Shown here: positions 25,474-30,444 of the stretch, one piece after another
How positions within the stretch are numbered: the stretch's first letter is position 1
Layout: every line of letters begins with the position of its first letter
Source of the DNA: Sinorhizobium meliloti
GTDB taxonomy: Bacteria; Pseudomonadota; Alphaproteobacteria; Rhizobiales; Rhizobiaceae
NCBI RefSeq assembly: GCF_017876815.1
Contig: NZ_JAGIOS010000002.1
Coordinates: 1,200,001-1,232,000 of the forward strand
Direction: 5' to 3'
Length of the DNA stretch: 32,000 nt
The notes under the pieces: generated by a model
Database searches by the model: none
The model's input: only the letters and a program-made list of their open reading frames with translations
Told to the model about the DNA's origin: nothing
Translations under genes and position numbers: made by a program

Positions 25474-25992
25474 ATGCACGGAGCCGAGAACCAGCCCACG
25501 GAAGCCGCTTTCGAGCCCTTGCTCCACTTCGAGATGGAGATGGGTGCCTTTCTTTCCGATTGGAATCATTGCGATCAGCTGTCGACCTTCATGGCGCGAA
25601 TGATAAGTCACAATCGCACTGATCCTGTTCGCCACTCGAATTTCTTCTCGTCCGCATTGAACGAGCTCCTCGAGGTCTCGTTCCGCAGCGGCTCGCCCGA
25701 CGGCCGGATCGGTTGTGCAGTTTATCGATGGGGGCCGACCGAACGGGTGGAGCTTACTTTCCCGTGTCCGCCCGGTCAGAGGCAGTTTTATAGAGAGGCG
25801 GTGTCGAAGACCCGCGACGCCGACGCCCATGCGCGCTACCTTGATTCCATCTCCACCGATCTCGCACCGAGTCGCGAGGCTGTTCTTCTGGACTTGTCGA
25901 TCAATTTCGATGCCGACGTGCGGCTCGACGAAAGCGATCCGCCATCGATCAGGCTTGTCGTGGATCTGCCTCTTGAAGGAGTGGTGAGGTGA
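25474..25992 (+). CDS. degenerate GHKL/RsbW-SiaB-like protein (predicted pseudokinase), paralog of the 29529-30092 product
   Basis: The ATG at 25474 follows GGGAGGAAG. It aligns along its length with the downstream kinase (SDWNHCDQLSTFMARM vs [16 protein letters not shown]; NELLEVSF vs [10 protein letters not shown]; LLDLSINFDADVRL vs [15 protein letters not shown]). It lacks the N-box Asn (V68) and the Gly-rich lid. Confidence 0.7.
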   Translation: MHGAENQPTEAAFEPLLHFEMEMGAFLSDWNHCDQLSTFMARMISHNRTDPVRHSNFFSSALNELLEVSFRSGSPDGRIGCAVYRWGPTERVELTFPCPPGQRQFYREAVSKTRDADAHARYLDSISTDLAPSREAVLLDLSINFDADVRLDESDPPSIRLVVDLPLEGVVR

Positions 25993-27167
25993 GTACGACA
26001 GCGTTTGCAGTTCCCTTCAAGGCGGAATTCGACCCGAACAGCCAGGAGTTCGCTCTTTCCGGGGTGGTGCGGCCGCGCTCGGCCGACGAGATCGCCGCAA
26101 GCATATCGATGCTCAAAGGCGCAATCGAAGAGGTGCGGGGCGTTCTCTACATCAACGTCAAGCGCCTGGTGCAGATGAACAACACGGCCTATCACGCCTT
26201 CGCGCGCGTTCTTCTCGATGCCTGTCGCACGCGGTCGGACATTCGCTTCGTCGTCGTGACCTCGAGCGTCGTGGGCTGGACCGAGCGCATGTTCGCCCAT
26301 TTGAACAAGATCGAGCCGCAAGTGACCGTCGAGGTCTACGACTCGAAGTTCTATCCCGGGCAGAGCTTCGTGGAAAACACGAGCTTCATCCCGATCCTGC
26401 GCACGCAAACGAAAATGACCTGGCGCCACGAGCGCAAGATGCTCCCGCGTCACGGACTGCGCCCGGGTATGACGATGGCAGACATATGTTGTGGCATCGG
26501 CGACTTCGCCATGCTGGTGCGGAAGGAGTTCCAGCCGGCACGCATCGTCGCGCTCGACCATTCCAAGGCGAGCCTCGCCTATGCGCGCGACGTGGCGTCC
26601 GGCTTCGGCGTAACGGATATCGAATATACCTATGGCGATGCCTCCGAGATGCTGCTCGAGGACAATCAGTTCGATTTCGTCACCTGCCGCCATTCGCTGC
26701 AGATCTTCAACCAGCCGGATGTGCTCCTGAAGGAACTCTTCCGGATCTGCAAGCCCGGCGGTCGGGTCTACATAACCAACGAGAAAAATTCCCACTGTCT
26801 CGGCGAACCGCGCGCACAGAGCATTCAATGGACCTACTACGAGGTCGCGAGGCTGTTCAGCCATTTCGAAATGGATGTGGAGTTCGGACCGAAGAGCAAG
26901 CGCTATCTTGTCGACGCCGGCTTTGACGATATCAACGTTGAATCGTTCATGGTCACCAATCTCGACGGAGATCCTCAGGACTTCGCCGATATCATCGCTG
27001 CCTGGGAGAACGTCTATGCCGGTGAAATGGCCGTAAAGCGCGGCGACCCGCCCGAGTTCATCGAACGTTTCCGGCAGGGTTTCCGGGACCACATTTTTGC
27101 CGCCCTCCATCCCAAGGGTTATGCCGGCTGGCCGATCTGGGCGGCCTCAGGGCGCAAGCCGCTATGA
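25989..27167 (+). CDS. fusion protein: N-terminal STAS/SiaC(DUF1987)-like domain plus C-terminal class-I SAM-dependent methyltransferase
   Basis: The GTG at 25989 overlaps the upstream stop (GTGA) and follows GAAGGAG. The N-terminal roughly 115 aa align with the 30106-30444 product. The C-terminal part has MTase motif I (ADICCGIGDF) and the post-I and later motifs (ALDHS, FDFVTCRHSLQ, CKPGGRVYI). Confidence 0.78.
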   Translation: MSTTAFAVPFKAEFDPNSQEFALSGVVRPRSADEIAASISMLKGAIEEVRGVLYINVKRLVQMNNTAYHAFARVLLDACRTRSDIRFVVVTSSVVGWTERMFAHLNKIEPQVTVEVYDSKFYPGQSFVENTSFIPILRTQTKMTWRHERKMLPRHGLRPGMTMADICCGIGDFAMLVRKEFQPARIVALDHSKASLAYARDVASGFGVTDIEYTYGDASEMLLEDNQFDFVTCRHSLQIFNQPDVLLKELFRICKPGGRVYITNEKNSHCLGEPRAQSIQWTYYEVARLFSHFEMDVEFGPKSKRYLVDAGFDDINVESFMVTNLDGDPQDFADIIAAWENVYAGEMAVKRGDPPEFIERFRQGFRDHIFAALHPKGYAGWPIWAASGRKPL

Positions 27168-30092: not shown

Positions 30093-30105
30093 CGGACAAC
30101 GAAAC

Positions 30106-30444
30106 ATGGAAATCAAGGAAGACGAATATCGCGTTTGGTCGGAAGACAAGGACATCTATTTCGACGGGACGATGCGCTTGCCGAGCACCGAAGCCTACGC
30201 CCCGATTTTCTCCCTCGTGATGAATATGCTCGAAGCCGAGCCGGAGCGCATGACCGTGGATCTTACGGGGCTTCAGTTCCTCAATTCCTCCGGAATCAAC
30301 CTGCTTGCGAAGCTCACCATCGAAGCGCGCAAGCGGCCGAACATTCAGTTTACCGTTCGCGGAAGCTCCGAGTTTCCCTGGCAGACGAAGTCCCTGCCGA
30401 ACCTCAAGAAGCTCCACCCTGGCGTCGATCTGAGGCTAAGCTGA
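30106..30444 (+). CDS. small STAS-fold / SiaC(DUF1987)-like phospho-acceptor protein (anti-anti-sigma-type partner-switch component)
   Basis: 112 aa. [21 protein letters not shown] matches the SpoIIAA/RsbV-type DLSxxxFxDSSG phosphorylation loop (S61/S62 at 30286-30291). The ATG at 30106 lies 13 nt after the kinase stop. The track start at 29992 lies inside the kinase gene. Confidence 0.78.

What the first reader, a model, noticed from the sequence alone, without database searches (positions are those of the whole stretch)
25474..30444. Five-gene coupled operon: a duplicated kinase-like/STAS-like partner-switch built around a dCache-HAMP-PP2C sensor, with a methyltransferase output
Gene order and junctions:
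1. A GHKL-like protein lacking catalytic residues.
2. A STAS/SiaC-like domain fused to a SAM methyltransferase.
3. A dCache-HAMP-PP2C phosphatase.
4. An intact RsbW/SiaB-like kinase.
5. A 112-aa STAS/SiaC-like protein.

The junctions are GTGA, ATGA, 4 nt and 13 nt, which implies one transcript and coupled translation.

Paralogy seen directly in the sequence:
- Genes 1 and 4 are paralogs of each other.
- The N-terminus of gene 2 and gene 5 are paralogs of each other.
- The locus therefore encodes two kinase-type/substrate-type pairs flanking one phosphatase.

Comparison with known systems: classical modules (RsbU-V-W, SpoIIE-AA-AB, SiaA-B-C) have a single pair and output to a sigma factor or a diguanylate cyclase. 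Here one pair has a dead kinase and its partner is covalently joined to a methyltransferase.

Working hypothesis:
- A periplasmic ligand sensed by the dCache domain sets the phosphorylation state of the STAS-like modules.
- That state decides whether the pseudokinase sequesters the methyltransferase fusion, and whether the free STAS protein engages the adjacent AGDEF-EAL enzyme.

From memory, and unverified here, small proteins in similar cyanobacterial operons carry family names of the slr1658/slr1659 type. I know of no functional description of this five-gene architecture.
Basis: partly seen in the sequence, partly recalled or inferred. Interest (0 to 1): 0.9.

Follow-up and report, generated by a model that had tools for sequence, protein, structure and literature searches.

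The report
The known bgr partner-switch operon
This is almost certainly the Sinorhizobium meliloti bgrRSTUWV operon, a published phosphorylation switch controlling a cyclic-di-GMP enzyme and glucan production; only its two extra genes, a dead kinase copy and a methyltransferase fused to a dead substrate copy, are still unexplained.

Summary
Five tightly coupled genes lie at 25474-30444, with junctions of -4, -4, +4 and +13 nt. They encode:
- g1: a degenerate GHKL protein.
- g2: a STAS-like domain fused to a SAM methyltransferase.
- g3: a Cache-like/HAMP/PP2C phosphatase.
- g4: an slr1658-superfamily GHKL protein.
- g5: an slr1659-superfamily STAS protein.

Both paralogies are real: g1~g4 by hhalign (91%), g2 N-terminus~g5 by hhalign (98%).

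The window is S. meliloti pSymB. The conserved unit has six genes, because an AGDEF-EAL gene sits directly upstream in all 80 related species loci.

This six-gene order matches the published bgrRSTUWV partner-switching operon (Baena et al. 2019). In that system phosphatase BgrU and kinase BgrW set the phosphorylation of the STAS protein BgrV, which controls the diguanylate cyclase BgrR and mixed-linkage beta-glucan synthesis. The novelty claim therefore fails.

Still open, and possibly new:
- BgrS and BgrT form a catalytically dead copy of the BgrW/BgrV pair.
- BgrT's methyltransferase is the best-conserved part of the operon.
- The S-T...W-V architecture recurs in four metagenomic contigs whose fusion proteins are 34-37% identical (35-67% GC). 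One contig has a class III cyclase upstream and one a GAF protein downstream.

The methyltransferase substrate and the role of the S/T pair are unknown.

The parts
23705..25399 (+). AGDEF-EAL protein (564 aa), inferred BgrR, the diguanylate cyclase that is the target of the switch.
   Evidence: Pfam GGDEF 153 bits and EAL 244 bits. A homologue lies directly upstream in all 80 related loci, on the same strand in 79. The motif R[LY]AGDEF is present in 80/80 and the EAL motif is kept. The spacer to g1 is 74 nt here and 36-278 nt elsewhere. The DGC role comes from the literature.
25474..25992 (+). g1 (172 aa), inferred BgrS: a GHKL-fold pseudokinase and degenerate paralogue of g4.
   Evidence: hhalign to the g4 family: probability 91%, E 9e-7. 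AF2 model pLDDT 84.7. Best Foldseek PDB hits are SpoIIAB, UsfX, SiaB (TM 0.61) and RsbW. It has NELLE[VLIM] in place of NELxEN and lacks the Gly-rich G2 box, both in rhizobia and in distant loci.
25989..26342 (+). g2 N-terminal domain (about residues 1-118), inferred BgrT: a STAS-like paralogue of g5 without the phospho-acceptor Ser.
   Evidence: hhalign to the g5 family: probability 98.3%, E 1.4e-14. NF047705 at 33 bits, E 5.5e-8. In the AF2 model, residues 8-116 have pLDDT of roughly 75-92 with a b-b-a-b-a-b-a-b order. QMNN[TAIMV]A aligns to FLNSSG of g5.
26376..27167 (+). g2 C-terminal class I SAM-dependent methyltransferase domain (about residues 130-392) of inferred BgrT.
   Evidence: Methyltransf_11/25/31 at 62-67 bits, all above cut-off. 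SAM-binding residues D165, G169, G171 and D190 are invariant down to 32% identity. Foldseek hits are small-molecule methyltransferases, though the model is poor here. It is the most conserved segment of the operon, at 85-87% mean identity.
27164..29524 (+). g3 (786 aa), inferred BgrU: membrane sensor phosphatase. Layout is TM, periplasmic Cache-like domain of about 380 aa, TM, HAMP, coiled coil, PP2C.
   Evidence: SpoIIE 131.6 bits, HAMP 46 bits, dCache_1 35.6 bits (below its cut-off of 45). Two hydrophobic segments lie near residues 16-40 and 425-458. The four PP2C metal-site motifs are intact in 81/81 sequences. SiaA equivalog scores 127 bits against a cut-off of 700.
29529..30092 (+). g4 (187 aa), inferred BgrW: slr1658-superfamily GHKL protein and the kinase of the switch.
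   Evidence: NF047703 at 161 bits (cut-off 100). 38 of 40 family members weakly match HATPase_c and 17 of 40 match HATPase_c_2. N-box NEL[IVM]EN in 81/81 and G2 box SGLGLL in 80/81; an Asn replaces the G1 Asp ([KR][VI]SN in 78/81). Kinase role from the literature.
30106..30444 (+). g5 (112 aa), inferred BgrV: slr1659-superfamily STAS protein and the phosphorylated switch component.
   Evidence: NF047705 at 136 bits (cut-off 100). Weak STAS hits at E 6e-4. The family profile finds anti-sigma antagonists RsfB, 3t6o and 4qtp as the best PDB sequences (E 0.005-0.06). LNSSG is invariant in 81/81. Role from the literature.

Best explanation
The locus is the bgrRSTUWV operon of Sinorhizobium meliloti pSymB. 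The proposed mapping is BgrR = the AGDEF-EAL protein just upstream, BgrS = g1, BgrT = g2, BgrU = g3, BgrW = g4 and BgrV = g5.

Shown in the literature
- The PP2C phosphatase BgrU and the kinase BgrW set the phosphorylation state of the STAS protein BgrV.
- BgrV in turn controls the diguanylate cyclase BgrR.
- Loss of bgrV derepresses BgrR and c-di-GMP-dependent synthesis of mixed-linkage beta-glucan.

Inferred here from the sequence
- BgrU is a membrane sensor with a periplasmic Cache-like domain, so an extracytoplasmic ligand probably sets its phosphatase activity.
- The acceptor in BgrV is Ser61 of the invariant FLNSSG motif.
- BgrS and the N-terminal domain of BgrT are an old duplicate of the BgrW/BgrV pair that has lost its chemistry. 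BgrS lacks the Mg-binding Asn and the glycine lid. BgrT lacks the acceptor Ser.
- The methyltransferase fused to BgrT is intact and strongly conserved.

Speculative
- BgrS and BgrT most likely form a stable, phosphorylation-independent complex, because they are always adjacent and translationally coupled.
- That complex may tie a methylation activity to the switch, or buffer it, by competing with BgrW/BgrV for each other's binding surfaces.
For: Source of the window
- 100% identity to S. meliloti pSymB records.

Match to the published system
[quoted passage not shown] - The six co-directional genes here are GGDEF-type enzyme, X, Y, PP2C, GHKL, STAS. That is exactly the R-S-T-U-W-V order, with U, W and V at the RsbU/W/V-like positions.
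- There is one copy per pSymB record.
- A bgsB-like HlyD gene and a neighbouring DGC lie about 44 kb away on the same replicon.

Conservation
- All six genes are conserved in order in 80/80 loci from Rhizobiaceae and Phyllobacteriaceae species, while other neighbours vary.
- Overlapping or near-abutting junctions are conserved.

Folds and motifs
- g1 GHKL fold.
- PP2C motifs intact, g5 Ser motif invariant, g4 N-box and G2 box invariant.
- Paralogy of the two pairs.

Link of slr1658/slr1659 pairs to nucleotide-second-messenger enzymes in other lineages
- Synechocystis Slr1657 is a GGDEF protein.
- L084 has a class III cyclase directly upstream.
Against: - The primary paper (Baena et al. 2019, doi 10.1111/1462-2920.14624) is not in the held library. 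The equation bgrR = SMb20447 and the word 'hexacistronic' come from my memory of its abstract.
- The strain 1021 record carries no annotation here. Searching SMb20447-SMb20452 found no paper.
- Tag arithmetic from the ehu/eut cluster is only roughly consistent, and it also rests on remembered tags.
- BgrR carries AGDEF rather than GGDEF plus an intact-looking EAL domain. Calling it a cyclase rests on the literature, not on the sequence.
- g4 has Asn at the G1-box Asp position, which is unusual for an ATP-using GHKL protein.
- Nothing tested here bears on the role of BgrS and BgrT. No complex prediction could be run.
Confidence: 0.85

Rival explanations
1. The operon would be an undescribed system whose real output is the methyltransferase. 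The pseudokinase g1 sequesters the STAS-methyltransferase fusion g2. Dephosphorylated g5 displaces g2 and releases methylation activity, with the c-di-GMP enzyme as a side branch.
For: - g1 has the SpoIIAB/RsbW/SiaB fold, which binds STAS partners.
- g2's N-terminal domain is a paralogue of g5, so the two could compete for one surface.
- g1 always directly precedes g2, with a 4-nt overlap, even in the four metagenomic loci whose fusions are 34-37% identical.
- The methyltransferase is the best-conserved part of the operon.
Against: - The system is described, and the demonstrated target is the cyclase BgrR.
- No binding, methylation or phenotype data exist for g1 or g2 in anything I could read.
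- No substrate can be named. The best family and fold matches are generic small-molecule methyltransferases, scoring below every equivalog cut-off.
- As a second output branch it is compatible with the best explanation. As 'the' output it is unsupported.
Confidence: 0.3
2. A SiaABCD-type mechanism: the unphosphorylated STAS-like protein binds and activates the adjacent cyclase, as SiaC activates SiaD.
For: - The parts list is the same: a HAMP-PP2C membrane phosphatase, a small GHKL kinase, a small STAS-like substrate and an adjacent GGDEF enzyme.
- g3's best NCBIfam hit is SiaA.
- Distant g4 homologues weakly hit SiaB_fam_kinase.
- The g1 model superposes best on SiaB.
Against: - bgrV is reported to encode a repressor of BgrR, and its deletion derepresses glucan synthesis. 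That is the opposite sign to SiaC.
- g3 scores 127 bits against the SiaA cut-off of 700.
- g5 belongs to the slr1659 superfamily. It had no match to the SiaC family DUF1987 at E <= 0.01 in the Pfam scan.
Confidence: 0.08
3. g1 and g2 are decaying duplicates with no function of their own, carried along in the operon.
For: - g1 is the least conserved gene, at 67% mean identity.
- g1 lacks the catalytic motifs.
- g2's STAS-like domain lacks the acceptor Ser.
Against: - Both are intact ORFs in 80/80 species loci and in four metagenomic contigs of 35-67% GC.
- The same residues are lost in every lineage, so this is an old and stable state rather than recent decay.
- The g2 methyltransferase keeps its SAM-binding residues down to 32% identity and is the most conserved segment.
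- The g1/g2 overlap is kept in 79 of the 80 loci measured.
Confidence: 0.03
4. The locus is a paralogue of bgrRSTUWV rather than the published operon itself.
For: - The primary paper and the locus tags could not be checked.
- Ensifer aridi carries two copies of the module (L006 and L015).
Against: - There is one copy per S. meliloti pSymB record.
- The letter order R-S-T-U-W-V fits this six-gene layout exactly.
- My recollection of SMb20447 fits the position downstream of the ehu/eut, narK, TRAP and uxuA genes.
Confidence: 0.07

Closest known systems
bgrRSTUWV partner-switching operon of Sinorhizobium meliloti (Baena et al. 2019, Environ Microbiol 21:3379)
   Same: - Same species and replicon type.
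- Six co-directional genes.
- A GGDEF-type enzyme comes first, and a PP2C phosphatase, a kinase and a STAS protein occupy positions 4, 5 and 6.
- A partner switch acts on a diguanylate cyclase.
- I take this locus to be the published operon itself.
   Different: - None is expected.
- The citing papers I could read say nothing on BgrS or BgrT. The pseudokinase and pseudo-substrate reading of those two, and the wider distribution of the architecture, come from this analysis.
SiaABCD of Pseudomonas aeruginosa
   Same: - A membrane HAMP-PP2C phosphatase, a small GHKL kinase, a small STAS-like substrate and an adjacent diguanylate cyclase regulated by direct binding.
- SiaB is among the best structural matches to the g1 model.
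   Different: - It has a single kinase/substrate pair and no methyltransferase.
- SiaC is a DUF1987 protein phosphorylated on Thr68, and it activates SiaD. BgrV is in the slr1659 superfamily, carries a Ser motif and is reported to repress BgrR.
- The SiaA and SiaB NCBIfam cut-offs are not met.
RsbU-RsbV-RsbW and SpoIIE-SpoIIAA-SpoIIAB partner switches
   Same: - PP2C phosphatase, GHKL anti-sigma kinase fold and a STAS antagonist with a D/N-S-S-G phospho-site.
   Different: - The target is an enzyme, not a sigma factor.
- The Pfam STAS and HATPase_c gathering scores are not reached.
- The G1-box Asp is replaced by Asn in g4.
- There is a second, catalytically dead pair.
Synechocystis slr1657-slr1658-slr1659 locus
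   Same: - g4 and g5 belong to the NCBIfam slr1658 and slr1659 superfamilies.
- Slr1657 is a GGDEF protein, so here too the pair sits next to a c-di-GMP enzyme.
   Different: - The papers I read report no S/T-type pair or methyltransferase fusion.
- Only a genetic phenotype is known: iron-starvation recovery and pgr5 overexpression. The signalling chain is stated to be unknown.
HptB-HsbR-HsbA-HsbD of P. aeruginosa
   Same: A STAS protein whose phosphorylation state controls a diguanylate cyclase by direct interaction.
   Different: - Kinase and phosphatase are fused in one response-regulator protein.
- There is no membrane Cache sensor, no duplicated pair and no methyltransferase.

Membership tests
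bgrRSTUWV operon (S. meliloti) | Six co-directional genes in S. meliloti: a GGDEF-type cyclase first, then two further genes, then PP2C phosphatase, kinase and STAS protein. | tested here: met
   Gene order and domains. Source is S. meliloti pSymB.
bgrRSTUWV operon (S. meliloti) | Identity of locus tags or coordinates with those in Baena et al. 2019 (bgrR = SMb20447, from memory). | not testable with these tools
   The paper is not held. The strain 1021 record is unannotated here. No paper in the library mentions the tags. Neighbouring ehu/eut, narK, TRAP and uxuA genes are consistent with the remembered numbering.
NCBIfam NF047703, slr1658 superfamily regulator | Whole-protein score at or above the curated cut-off of 100 bits. 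| tested here: met
   g4 scores 161.2 bits. The g4-type proteins of L083 and L084 score 160 and 145 bits.
NCBIfam NF047703, slr1658 superfamily regulator (g1) | Whole-protein score at or above the curated cut-off of 100 bits. | tested here: not met
   g1 scores 28.9 bits. Distant g1-type proteins score 63 and 44 bits. Homology to g4 is nevertheless supported by hhalign at 91%. g1 is therefore a divergent relative, not a member by the curated test.
NCBIfam NF047705, slr1659 superfamily regulator | Whole-protein score at or above the curated cut-off of 100 bits. | tested here: met
   g5 scores 136.1 bits. The L083 homologue scores 128.9 bits.
NCBIfam NF047705, slr1659 superfamily regulator (g2 N-terminus) | Whole-protein score at or above the curated cut-off of 100 bits. 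| tested here: not met
   33.1 bits, E 5.5e-8. hhalign to the g5 family gives probability 98.3%.
GHKL (Bergerat-fold) protein kinases of the SpoIIAB/RsbW/SiaB type | Bergerat fold. | tested here: met
   g1 model has pLDDT 84.7. The top Foldseek hits are SpoIIAB, UsfX, SiaB and RsbW, with probability 1.00 and TM 0.5-0.7 normalised by target length. g4 was not modelled; its fold is inferred from homology to g1 and weak HATPase_c matches in 38 of 40 relatives.
GHKL (Bergerat-fold) protein kinases of the SpoIIAB/RsbW/SiaB type | N-box ExxxN, carrying the general-base Glu and the Mg-binding Asn. | tested here: met
   g4: NEL[IVM]EN in 81/81 sequences. g1: not met, because the Asn is replaced by V/L/I/M/A/T/Y in all lineages.
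GHKL (Bergerat-fold) protein kinases of the SpoIIAB/RsbW/SiaB type | G1 box DxGxG, whose Asp contacts the adenine. | tested here: not met
   g4 has [KR][VI]SN-x-V/I-x at that position, with an invariant Asn and no Gly. g1 has TFPC. The register was assigned by eye against the SpoIIAB sequence recalled from memory, not by structural superposition.
GHKL (Bergerat-fold) protein kinases of the SpoIIAB/RsbW/SiaB type | G2 box GxGxG, the ATP lid hinge. | tested here: met
   g4: SGLGLL in 80/81 sequences. g1: not met, PSREAVLLDL.
STAS anti-sigma-factor antagonists (SpoIIAA/RsbV type) | Pfam STAS or TIGR00377 score at or above the curated cut-off. | tested here: not met
   g5: STAS 20.0 bits against 22.6, STAS_2 19.8 against 29.2, TIGR00377 19.5 against 53.45. 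The family profile's best PDB sequence hits are all STAS antagonists, at E 0.005-0.06.
STAS anti-sigma-factor antagonists (SpoIIAA/RsbV type) | Conserved phospho-acceptor Ser in the (D/N)-S-S-G motif at the start of helix 2. | tested here: met
   g5: LNSSG in 81/81 sequences and in L083 and L085. g2 N-terminus: not met. It has N-N-[TAIMV]-A in rhizobia and A, T, H or E at the Ser position in distant loci.
STAS anti-sigma-factor antagonists (SpoIIAA/RsbV type) | STAS fold (b-b-a-b-a-b-a-b). | tested here: inconclusive
   Residues 8-116 of the g2 model are confident and have that order of elements. The fold search of the whole model returned only methyltransferases. g5 was not modelled.
PP2C/SpoIIE phosphatases | Pfam SpoIIE above cut-off and metal-binding Asp motifs present. 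| tested here: met
   131.6 bits against a cut-off of 25. GGD[YF], D[VI]xGHG, TDG and DD[ILV][TS] are present in 81/81 sequences.
SiaA (NF038263 equivalog) | Score at or above 700 bits. | tested here: not met
   127 bits, covering only the HAMP-PP2C half.
Class I SAM-dependent methyltransferases | Pfam methyltransferase domain above cut-off, with motif I (DxxxGxG) and the acidic residue after strand 2. | tested here: met
   Methyltransf_11 at 67 bits against 21.2. D165, G169, G171 and D190 are invariant across 32-100% identity.
UbiE/MenG quinone methyltransferases (the annotation carried by g1 and g2 in many records) | NCBIfam equivalog or subfamily cut-off. | tested here: not met
   g2 scores at most 64.8 bits against cut-offs of 158-420. 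g1 has no methyltransferase domain at all, although it is widely labelled UbiE.
GGDEF diguanylate cyclases (upstream gene) | Canonical GG[DE]EF active-site motif. | tested here: not met
   R[LY]AGDEF in 80/80 sequences. The Pfam GGDEF domain scores 153 bits. Cyclase activity is asserted in the literature.
dCache_1 sensor domain (g3 periplasmic region) | Pfam gathering score of 45 bits. | tested here: not met
   35.6 bits, a partial match to profile positions 108-183. The same weak hit is recorded for the g3-type proteins of L083 and L084.

The most novel reading that the evidence does not exclude
BgrS and BgrT are not passengers. They would form an ancient, phosphorylation-blind copy of the kinase/STAS pair that couples a conserved SAM-dependent methyltransferase to the state of the partner switch. 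The mechanism would be competition between BgrV and the BgrT STAS-like domain for BgrS or BgrW. This would give the system a second, methylation-based output or a feedback branch. The same dual-pair module would operate in unrelated bacteria (35-67% GC) alongside different neighbouring signalling proteins: a GGDEF-EAL enzyme, a class III cyclase or a GAF protein.
Probability: 0.3. Interest if true: 0.6.

Novelty: already known. Interest (0 to 1): 0.3.

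Why it matters
As a discovery, the operon adds little. The U/W/V-to-R partner switch and its role in c-di-GMP-dependent glucan synthesis are already published for this organism.

What is worth carrying forward is narrower.
- Two of the six genes have no assigned role in anything I could read. 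The sequence shows that they form a matched pair: a pseudokinase, and a pseudo-substrate fused to a methyltransferase.
- That methyltransferase is the most strongly conserved segment of the operon.
- The dual-pair architecture is old and occurs well outside the rhizobia.

This gives a concrete, testable question for a system with genetics already in place: what does BgrT methylate, and does BgrS gate it?

The analysis also flags a widespread misannotation. BgrS homologues are labelled 'UbiE'.

Tried and rejected
- **Pairwise BLASTP of the g2 N-terminus against g5** found nothing. Only profile comparison showed the relationship.
- **Single-sequence and profile searches of g4 against PDB sequences** gave no significant hit. 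The GHKL assignment rests on weak Pfam matches across the family and on the g1 model.
- **The g2 structure model** was poor overall (pLDDT 59.8). Its fold search returned only generic methyltransferases, so it says nothing about the substrate or about how the STAS-like domain packs on the enzyme.
- **The genome-contig scan** kept only the 80 closest loci, all at least 74% identical. Distant examples had to come from the representative library plus contig look-ups. Their organisms remain unnamed.
- **Promoter and terminator scans** were uninformative, with counts at or below shuffle expectation. Whether bgrR is co-transcribed with the other five genes was not tested here.
- **Locus-tag confirmation failed**. 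Gene counting from bgsBA gave 43 PGAP genes against 56 tag numbers, so tag arithmetic is not decisive.
- **Rfam** found no RNA family in the window.
- **An adaptation-type (CheR-like) role for the methyltransferase acting on g3** was considered and set aside. g3 has no MCP-type methylation helices, only a coiled coil between HAMP and PP2C. This was read from the sequence and not tested.
- **The idea that the G1 Asp-to-Asn change in g4 alters nucleotide specificity** was considered. There is no evidence for it.

Full report
**1. What is in the sequence**

They match the gene calls in deposited S. meliloti pSymB records.

| Gene | Coordinates | Length |
|---|---|---|
| g1 | 25474-25992 | 172 aa |
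| g2 | 25989-27167 | 392 aa |
| g3 | 27164-29524 | 786 aa |
| g4 | 29529-30092 | 187 aa |
| g5 | 30106-30444 | 112 aa |

- The junctions read directly from the DNA are a GTGA overlap, an ATGA overlap, a 4-nt gap and a 13-nt gap.
- The window is 100% identical to pSymB of several S. meliloti strains.

**2. Family assignments**

- g3 is a SpoIIE/PP2C phosphatase (131.6 bits) with a HAMP domain (46 bits). Its dCache_1 match is sub-threshold, 35.6 bits against a cut-off of 45.
  - Two hydrophobic segments flank a region of about 380 residues.
  - All four PP2C metal-site motifs are intact in 81/81 sequences.
- g2 carries a class I SAM methyltransferase domain that passes several Pfam cut-offs.
- g4 and g5 pass the curated cut-offs of NCBIfam NF047703 (slr1658 superfamily, 161 bits) and NF047705 (slr1659 superfamily, 136 bits).
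- g1 and the first 113 residues of g2 hit the same two models only weakly, at 28.9 and 33.1 bits.

**3. The two paralogies are real**

*g1 and g4*
- BLASTP gives E 5e-5. Profile-profile comparison gives probability 91%, E 9e-7.
- An AlphaFold2 model of g1 has pLDDT 84.7 and pTM 0.81. Its best PDB matches are SpoIIAB, UsfX, SiaB (TM 0.61) and RsbW. g1 therefore has the fold of the anti-sigma-factor kinases.
- In g1, the N-box Asn is replaced (NELLEV against NELIENA in g4). The glycine-rich G2 box is also gone.
- The same losses appear in the g1-type proteins of four metagenomic loci whose fusion proteins are only 34-37% identical to g2. This is an old and stable pseudokinase state.

*g2 N-terminus and g5*
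- The two cannot be aligned pairwise. Their family profiles align over 106 columns with probability 98.3%, E 1.4e-14.
- The g5 family profile finds only STAS anti-sigma antagonists as its best PDB sequence matches, at E 0.005-0.06.
- g5 carries an invariant FLNSSG motif in 81/81 sequences. This corresponds to the phospho-Ser motif of SpoIIAA-type proteins. That correspondence is my reading, based on established knowledge of the family.
- The g2 domain has N-N-[T/A/I/M/V]-A at that position in rhizobia, and A, T, H or E at the Ser position in distant homologues. It has no conserved acceptor.
- Residues 8-116 of the g2 model are confident and have a STAS-like order of strands and helices. The rest of the model is poor, and its fold search returned only methyltransferases.

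*A caveat on g4*
- It keeps the N-box in 81/81 sequences and the G2 box in 80/81.
- An invariant Asn sits where the GHKL G1-box Asp is expected, in rhizobia and in distant homologues alike.
- 'Intact kinase' therefore cannot be asserted from sequence alone.

**4. The conserved unit has six genes**

A scan of one genome per species found 476 relatives of g2, of which the 80 closest were kept.
- In all 80 loci the five genes are present in the same order. The genera are Sinorhizobium/Ensifer, Rhizobium, Neorhizobium, Pararhizobium, Mesorhizobium, Aminobacter and Phyllobacterium.
- A GGDEF-EAL gene lies directly upstream in all 80, on the same strand in 79.
- The window's other neighbours, uxuA and the SMP-30 gene, are not conserved.
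- Junctions are conserved across the 80 loci measured: g1/g2 at -4 nt in 79, g2/g3 at -4 nt in 71, g3/g4 at 0-6 nt and g4/g5 at 8-25 nt. The spacer between the GGDEF-EAL gene and g1 varies from 36 to 278 nt.
- All 80 upstream proteins carry AGDEF rather than GGDEF and keep the EAL motif.

**5. It is already described**

While reading about SiaABCD I found that S. meliloti has a published partner-switching system.
[quoted passage not shown] The source is Baena et al. 2019, Environ Microbiol 21:3379.
- The paper is not held in the library.
- From memory, its abstract names bgrR as SMb20447, the first gene of a hexacistronic bgrRSTUWV operon.

The six genes here are a GGDEF-type enzyme, two further genes, a PP2C, a GHKL protein and a STAS protein. 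They fit the letters R-S-T-U-W-V one to one.

Supporting observations:
- There is one copy per pSymB record.
- The ehu/eut ectoine cluster, narK, a TRAP transporter, idonate dehydrogenase and uxuA lie just upstream. I remember ehu/eut as SMb20427-35, which fits a tag near SMb20447.
- A bgsB-like HlyD gene and an adjacent cyclase lie about 44 kb away.

I could not check the tags directly. I put the identity at about 0.9.

**6. What remains open**

Nothing I could read assigns a role to BgrS (g1) or BgrT (g2).

*Conservation.* The methyltransferase part of BgrT is the best-conserved segment of the whole operon. BgrS is the least conserved gene.

| Segment | Mean identity across the 80 loci |
|---|---|
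| BgrT methyltransferase part | 85-87% |
| g3 | 79% |
| g5 | 76% |
| Upstream enzyme (BgrR) | 72% |
| BgrT STAS-like domain | 71% |
| g4 | 70% |
| g1 (BgrS) | 67% |

The SAM-binding residues of BgrT are invariant down to 32% identity.

*Small but old fusion family.* Only 24 clusters at 50% identity score E <= 1e-30. Four full-length members, 34-37% identical, could be placed on contigs.

| Locus | GC | Gene order |
|---|---|---|
| L083 | 58% | g1-g2-g3-g4-g5-GAF protein |
| L084 | 36% | class III cyclase-g1-g2-(inserted PDDEXK gene)-g3-g4 |
| L085 | 67% | g1-g2-g4-g5, with no PP2C in between |
| L086 | 54% | g1-g2-large partial ORF with no domain annotation (possibly the PP2C gene) |

- GC values are.
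- A g1-type gene always directly precedes the fusion. A g4-type gene is followed by a g5-type gene wherever the contig extends that far (L083, L085).

*Link to second-messenger signalling.* slr1658/slr1659-type pairs sit next to such proteins in several lineages.
- GGDEF-EAL in rhizobia.
- A class III cyclase in L084.
- A GAF protein in L083.
- The GGDEF protein Slr1657 in Synechocystis.
- For slr1658 only a genetic phenotype is known, and the signalling chain is stated to be unknown.

**7. Mechanism**

*Shown in the literature*
- BgrU and BgrW set BgrV phosphorylation.
- BgrV acts on BgrR.
- BgrR supplies c-di-GMP for glucan synthesis.

*Inferred here*
- BgrU senses an extracytoplasmic ligand through a Cache-like domain.
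- Ser61 of BgrV is the acceptor.
- BgrS and BgrT form a stable pair that cannot be phosphorylated.

*Speculative*
- BgrV and the BgrT STAS-like domain may compete for BgrS or BgrW. That would link methyltransferase activity to the switch or buffer it.
- No complex prediction or assay was available, and the methyltransferase substrate is unknown. Its best matches are generic small-molecule enzymes, below every curated cut-off.

**8. Verdict**

- The novelty claim is refuted, because this is the published bgr operon in its own species.
- The residual interest is modest. It lies in the unexplained pseudokinase/pseudo-substrate-methyltransferase pair and its wide, sparse distribution.

Noticed in passing
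window 25474-25992 (g1), plus homologues P0242-P0345: Many GenBank, RefSeq and UniRef records label g1 and its homologues 'ubiquinone biosynthesis methyltransferase UbiE'. The protein has no methyltransferase domain and models as a GHKL fold. The label was probably carried over from the neighbouring gene.
   Followed up: partly
window 29529-30092 (g4), residues 98-105; also L083:6025-6600, L084:13555-14115 and L085:4059-4619: The slr1658-superfamily proteins keep the GHKL N-box and G2 box. They have an invariant Asn and no glycines where the G1-box DxGxG is expected. BgrW is nevertheless reported to act as a kinase. The nucleotide-binding mode of this family may be unusual.
   Followed up: partly
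window 23705-25399, plus the upstream gene of L002-L081: All 80 orthologues of the upstream enzyme carry AGDEF (R[LY]AGDEF) rather than GGDEF. All also keep an apparently complete EAL active-site set. A protein published as a cyclase may therefore be bifunctional, or may need a partner to choose its activity. Its first ~130 residues match no Pfam family.
   Followed up: partly
L084:10417-10976: In the low-GC metagenomic locus, a PDDEXK_2 gene (138 aa) and a 48-aa ORF lie between the fusion gene and the PP2C gene. They break an otherwise tight junction.
   Followed up: no
L006 and L015 (Ensifer aridi LMR001): This genome carries two copies of the five-gene module. In L015 the best GGDEF-EAL match lies on the opposite strand upstream, at 65% identity. 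It is the only one of the 80 loci without a same-strand upstream copy.
   Followed up: no
L085:2328-4971: In a 67%-GC contig the order is g1-g2-g4-g5 with no PP2C gene between the pairs. The phosphatase position is therefore not fixed, while the two pairs stay together.
   Followed up: no
window 29992-30444: The longest ORF for g5 starts at 29992 (150 aa) and overlaps g4 by 101 nt. Homologues all begin at MEIK/MEVR, which supports the annotated 112-aa start at 30106.
   Followed up: yes
locus list: No S. meliloti genome appears among the 80 best loci of the genome-contig scan, although closer matches than the 96% top hits should exist. The source species may be masked in, or absent from, that collection.
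   Followed up: no
window 1-23500 (by comparison with L088, CP050561.1 272000-300800): By synteny with the annotated record, the rest of the window should hold ectoine-utilisation, nitrate transporter (narK), FadR-type regulator, TRAP transporter, L-idonate dehydrogenase and uxuA genes. All are ordinary catabolic neighbours, not conserved next to the operon in other genera. Only L-idonate dehydrogenase and uxuA were confirmed in window coordinates. No Rfam family is present in the window.
   Followed up: partly
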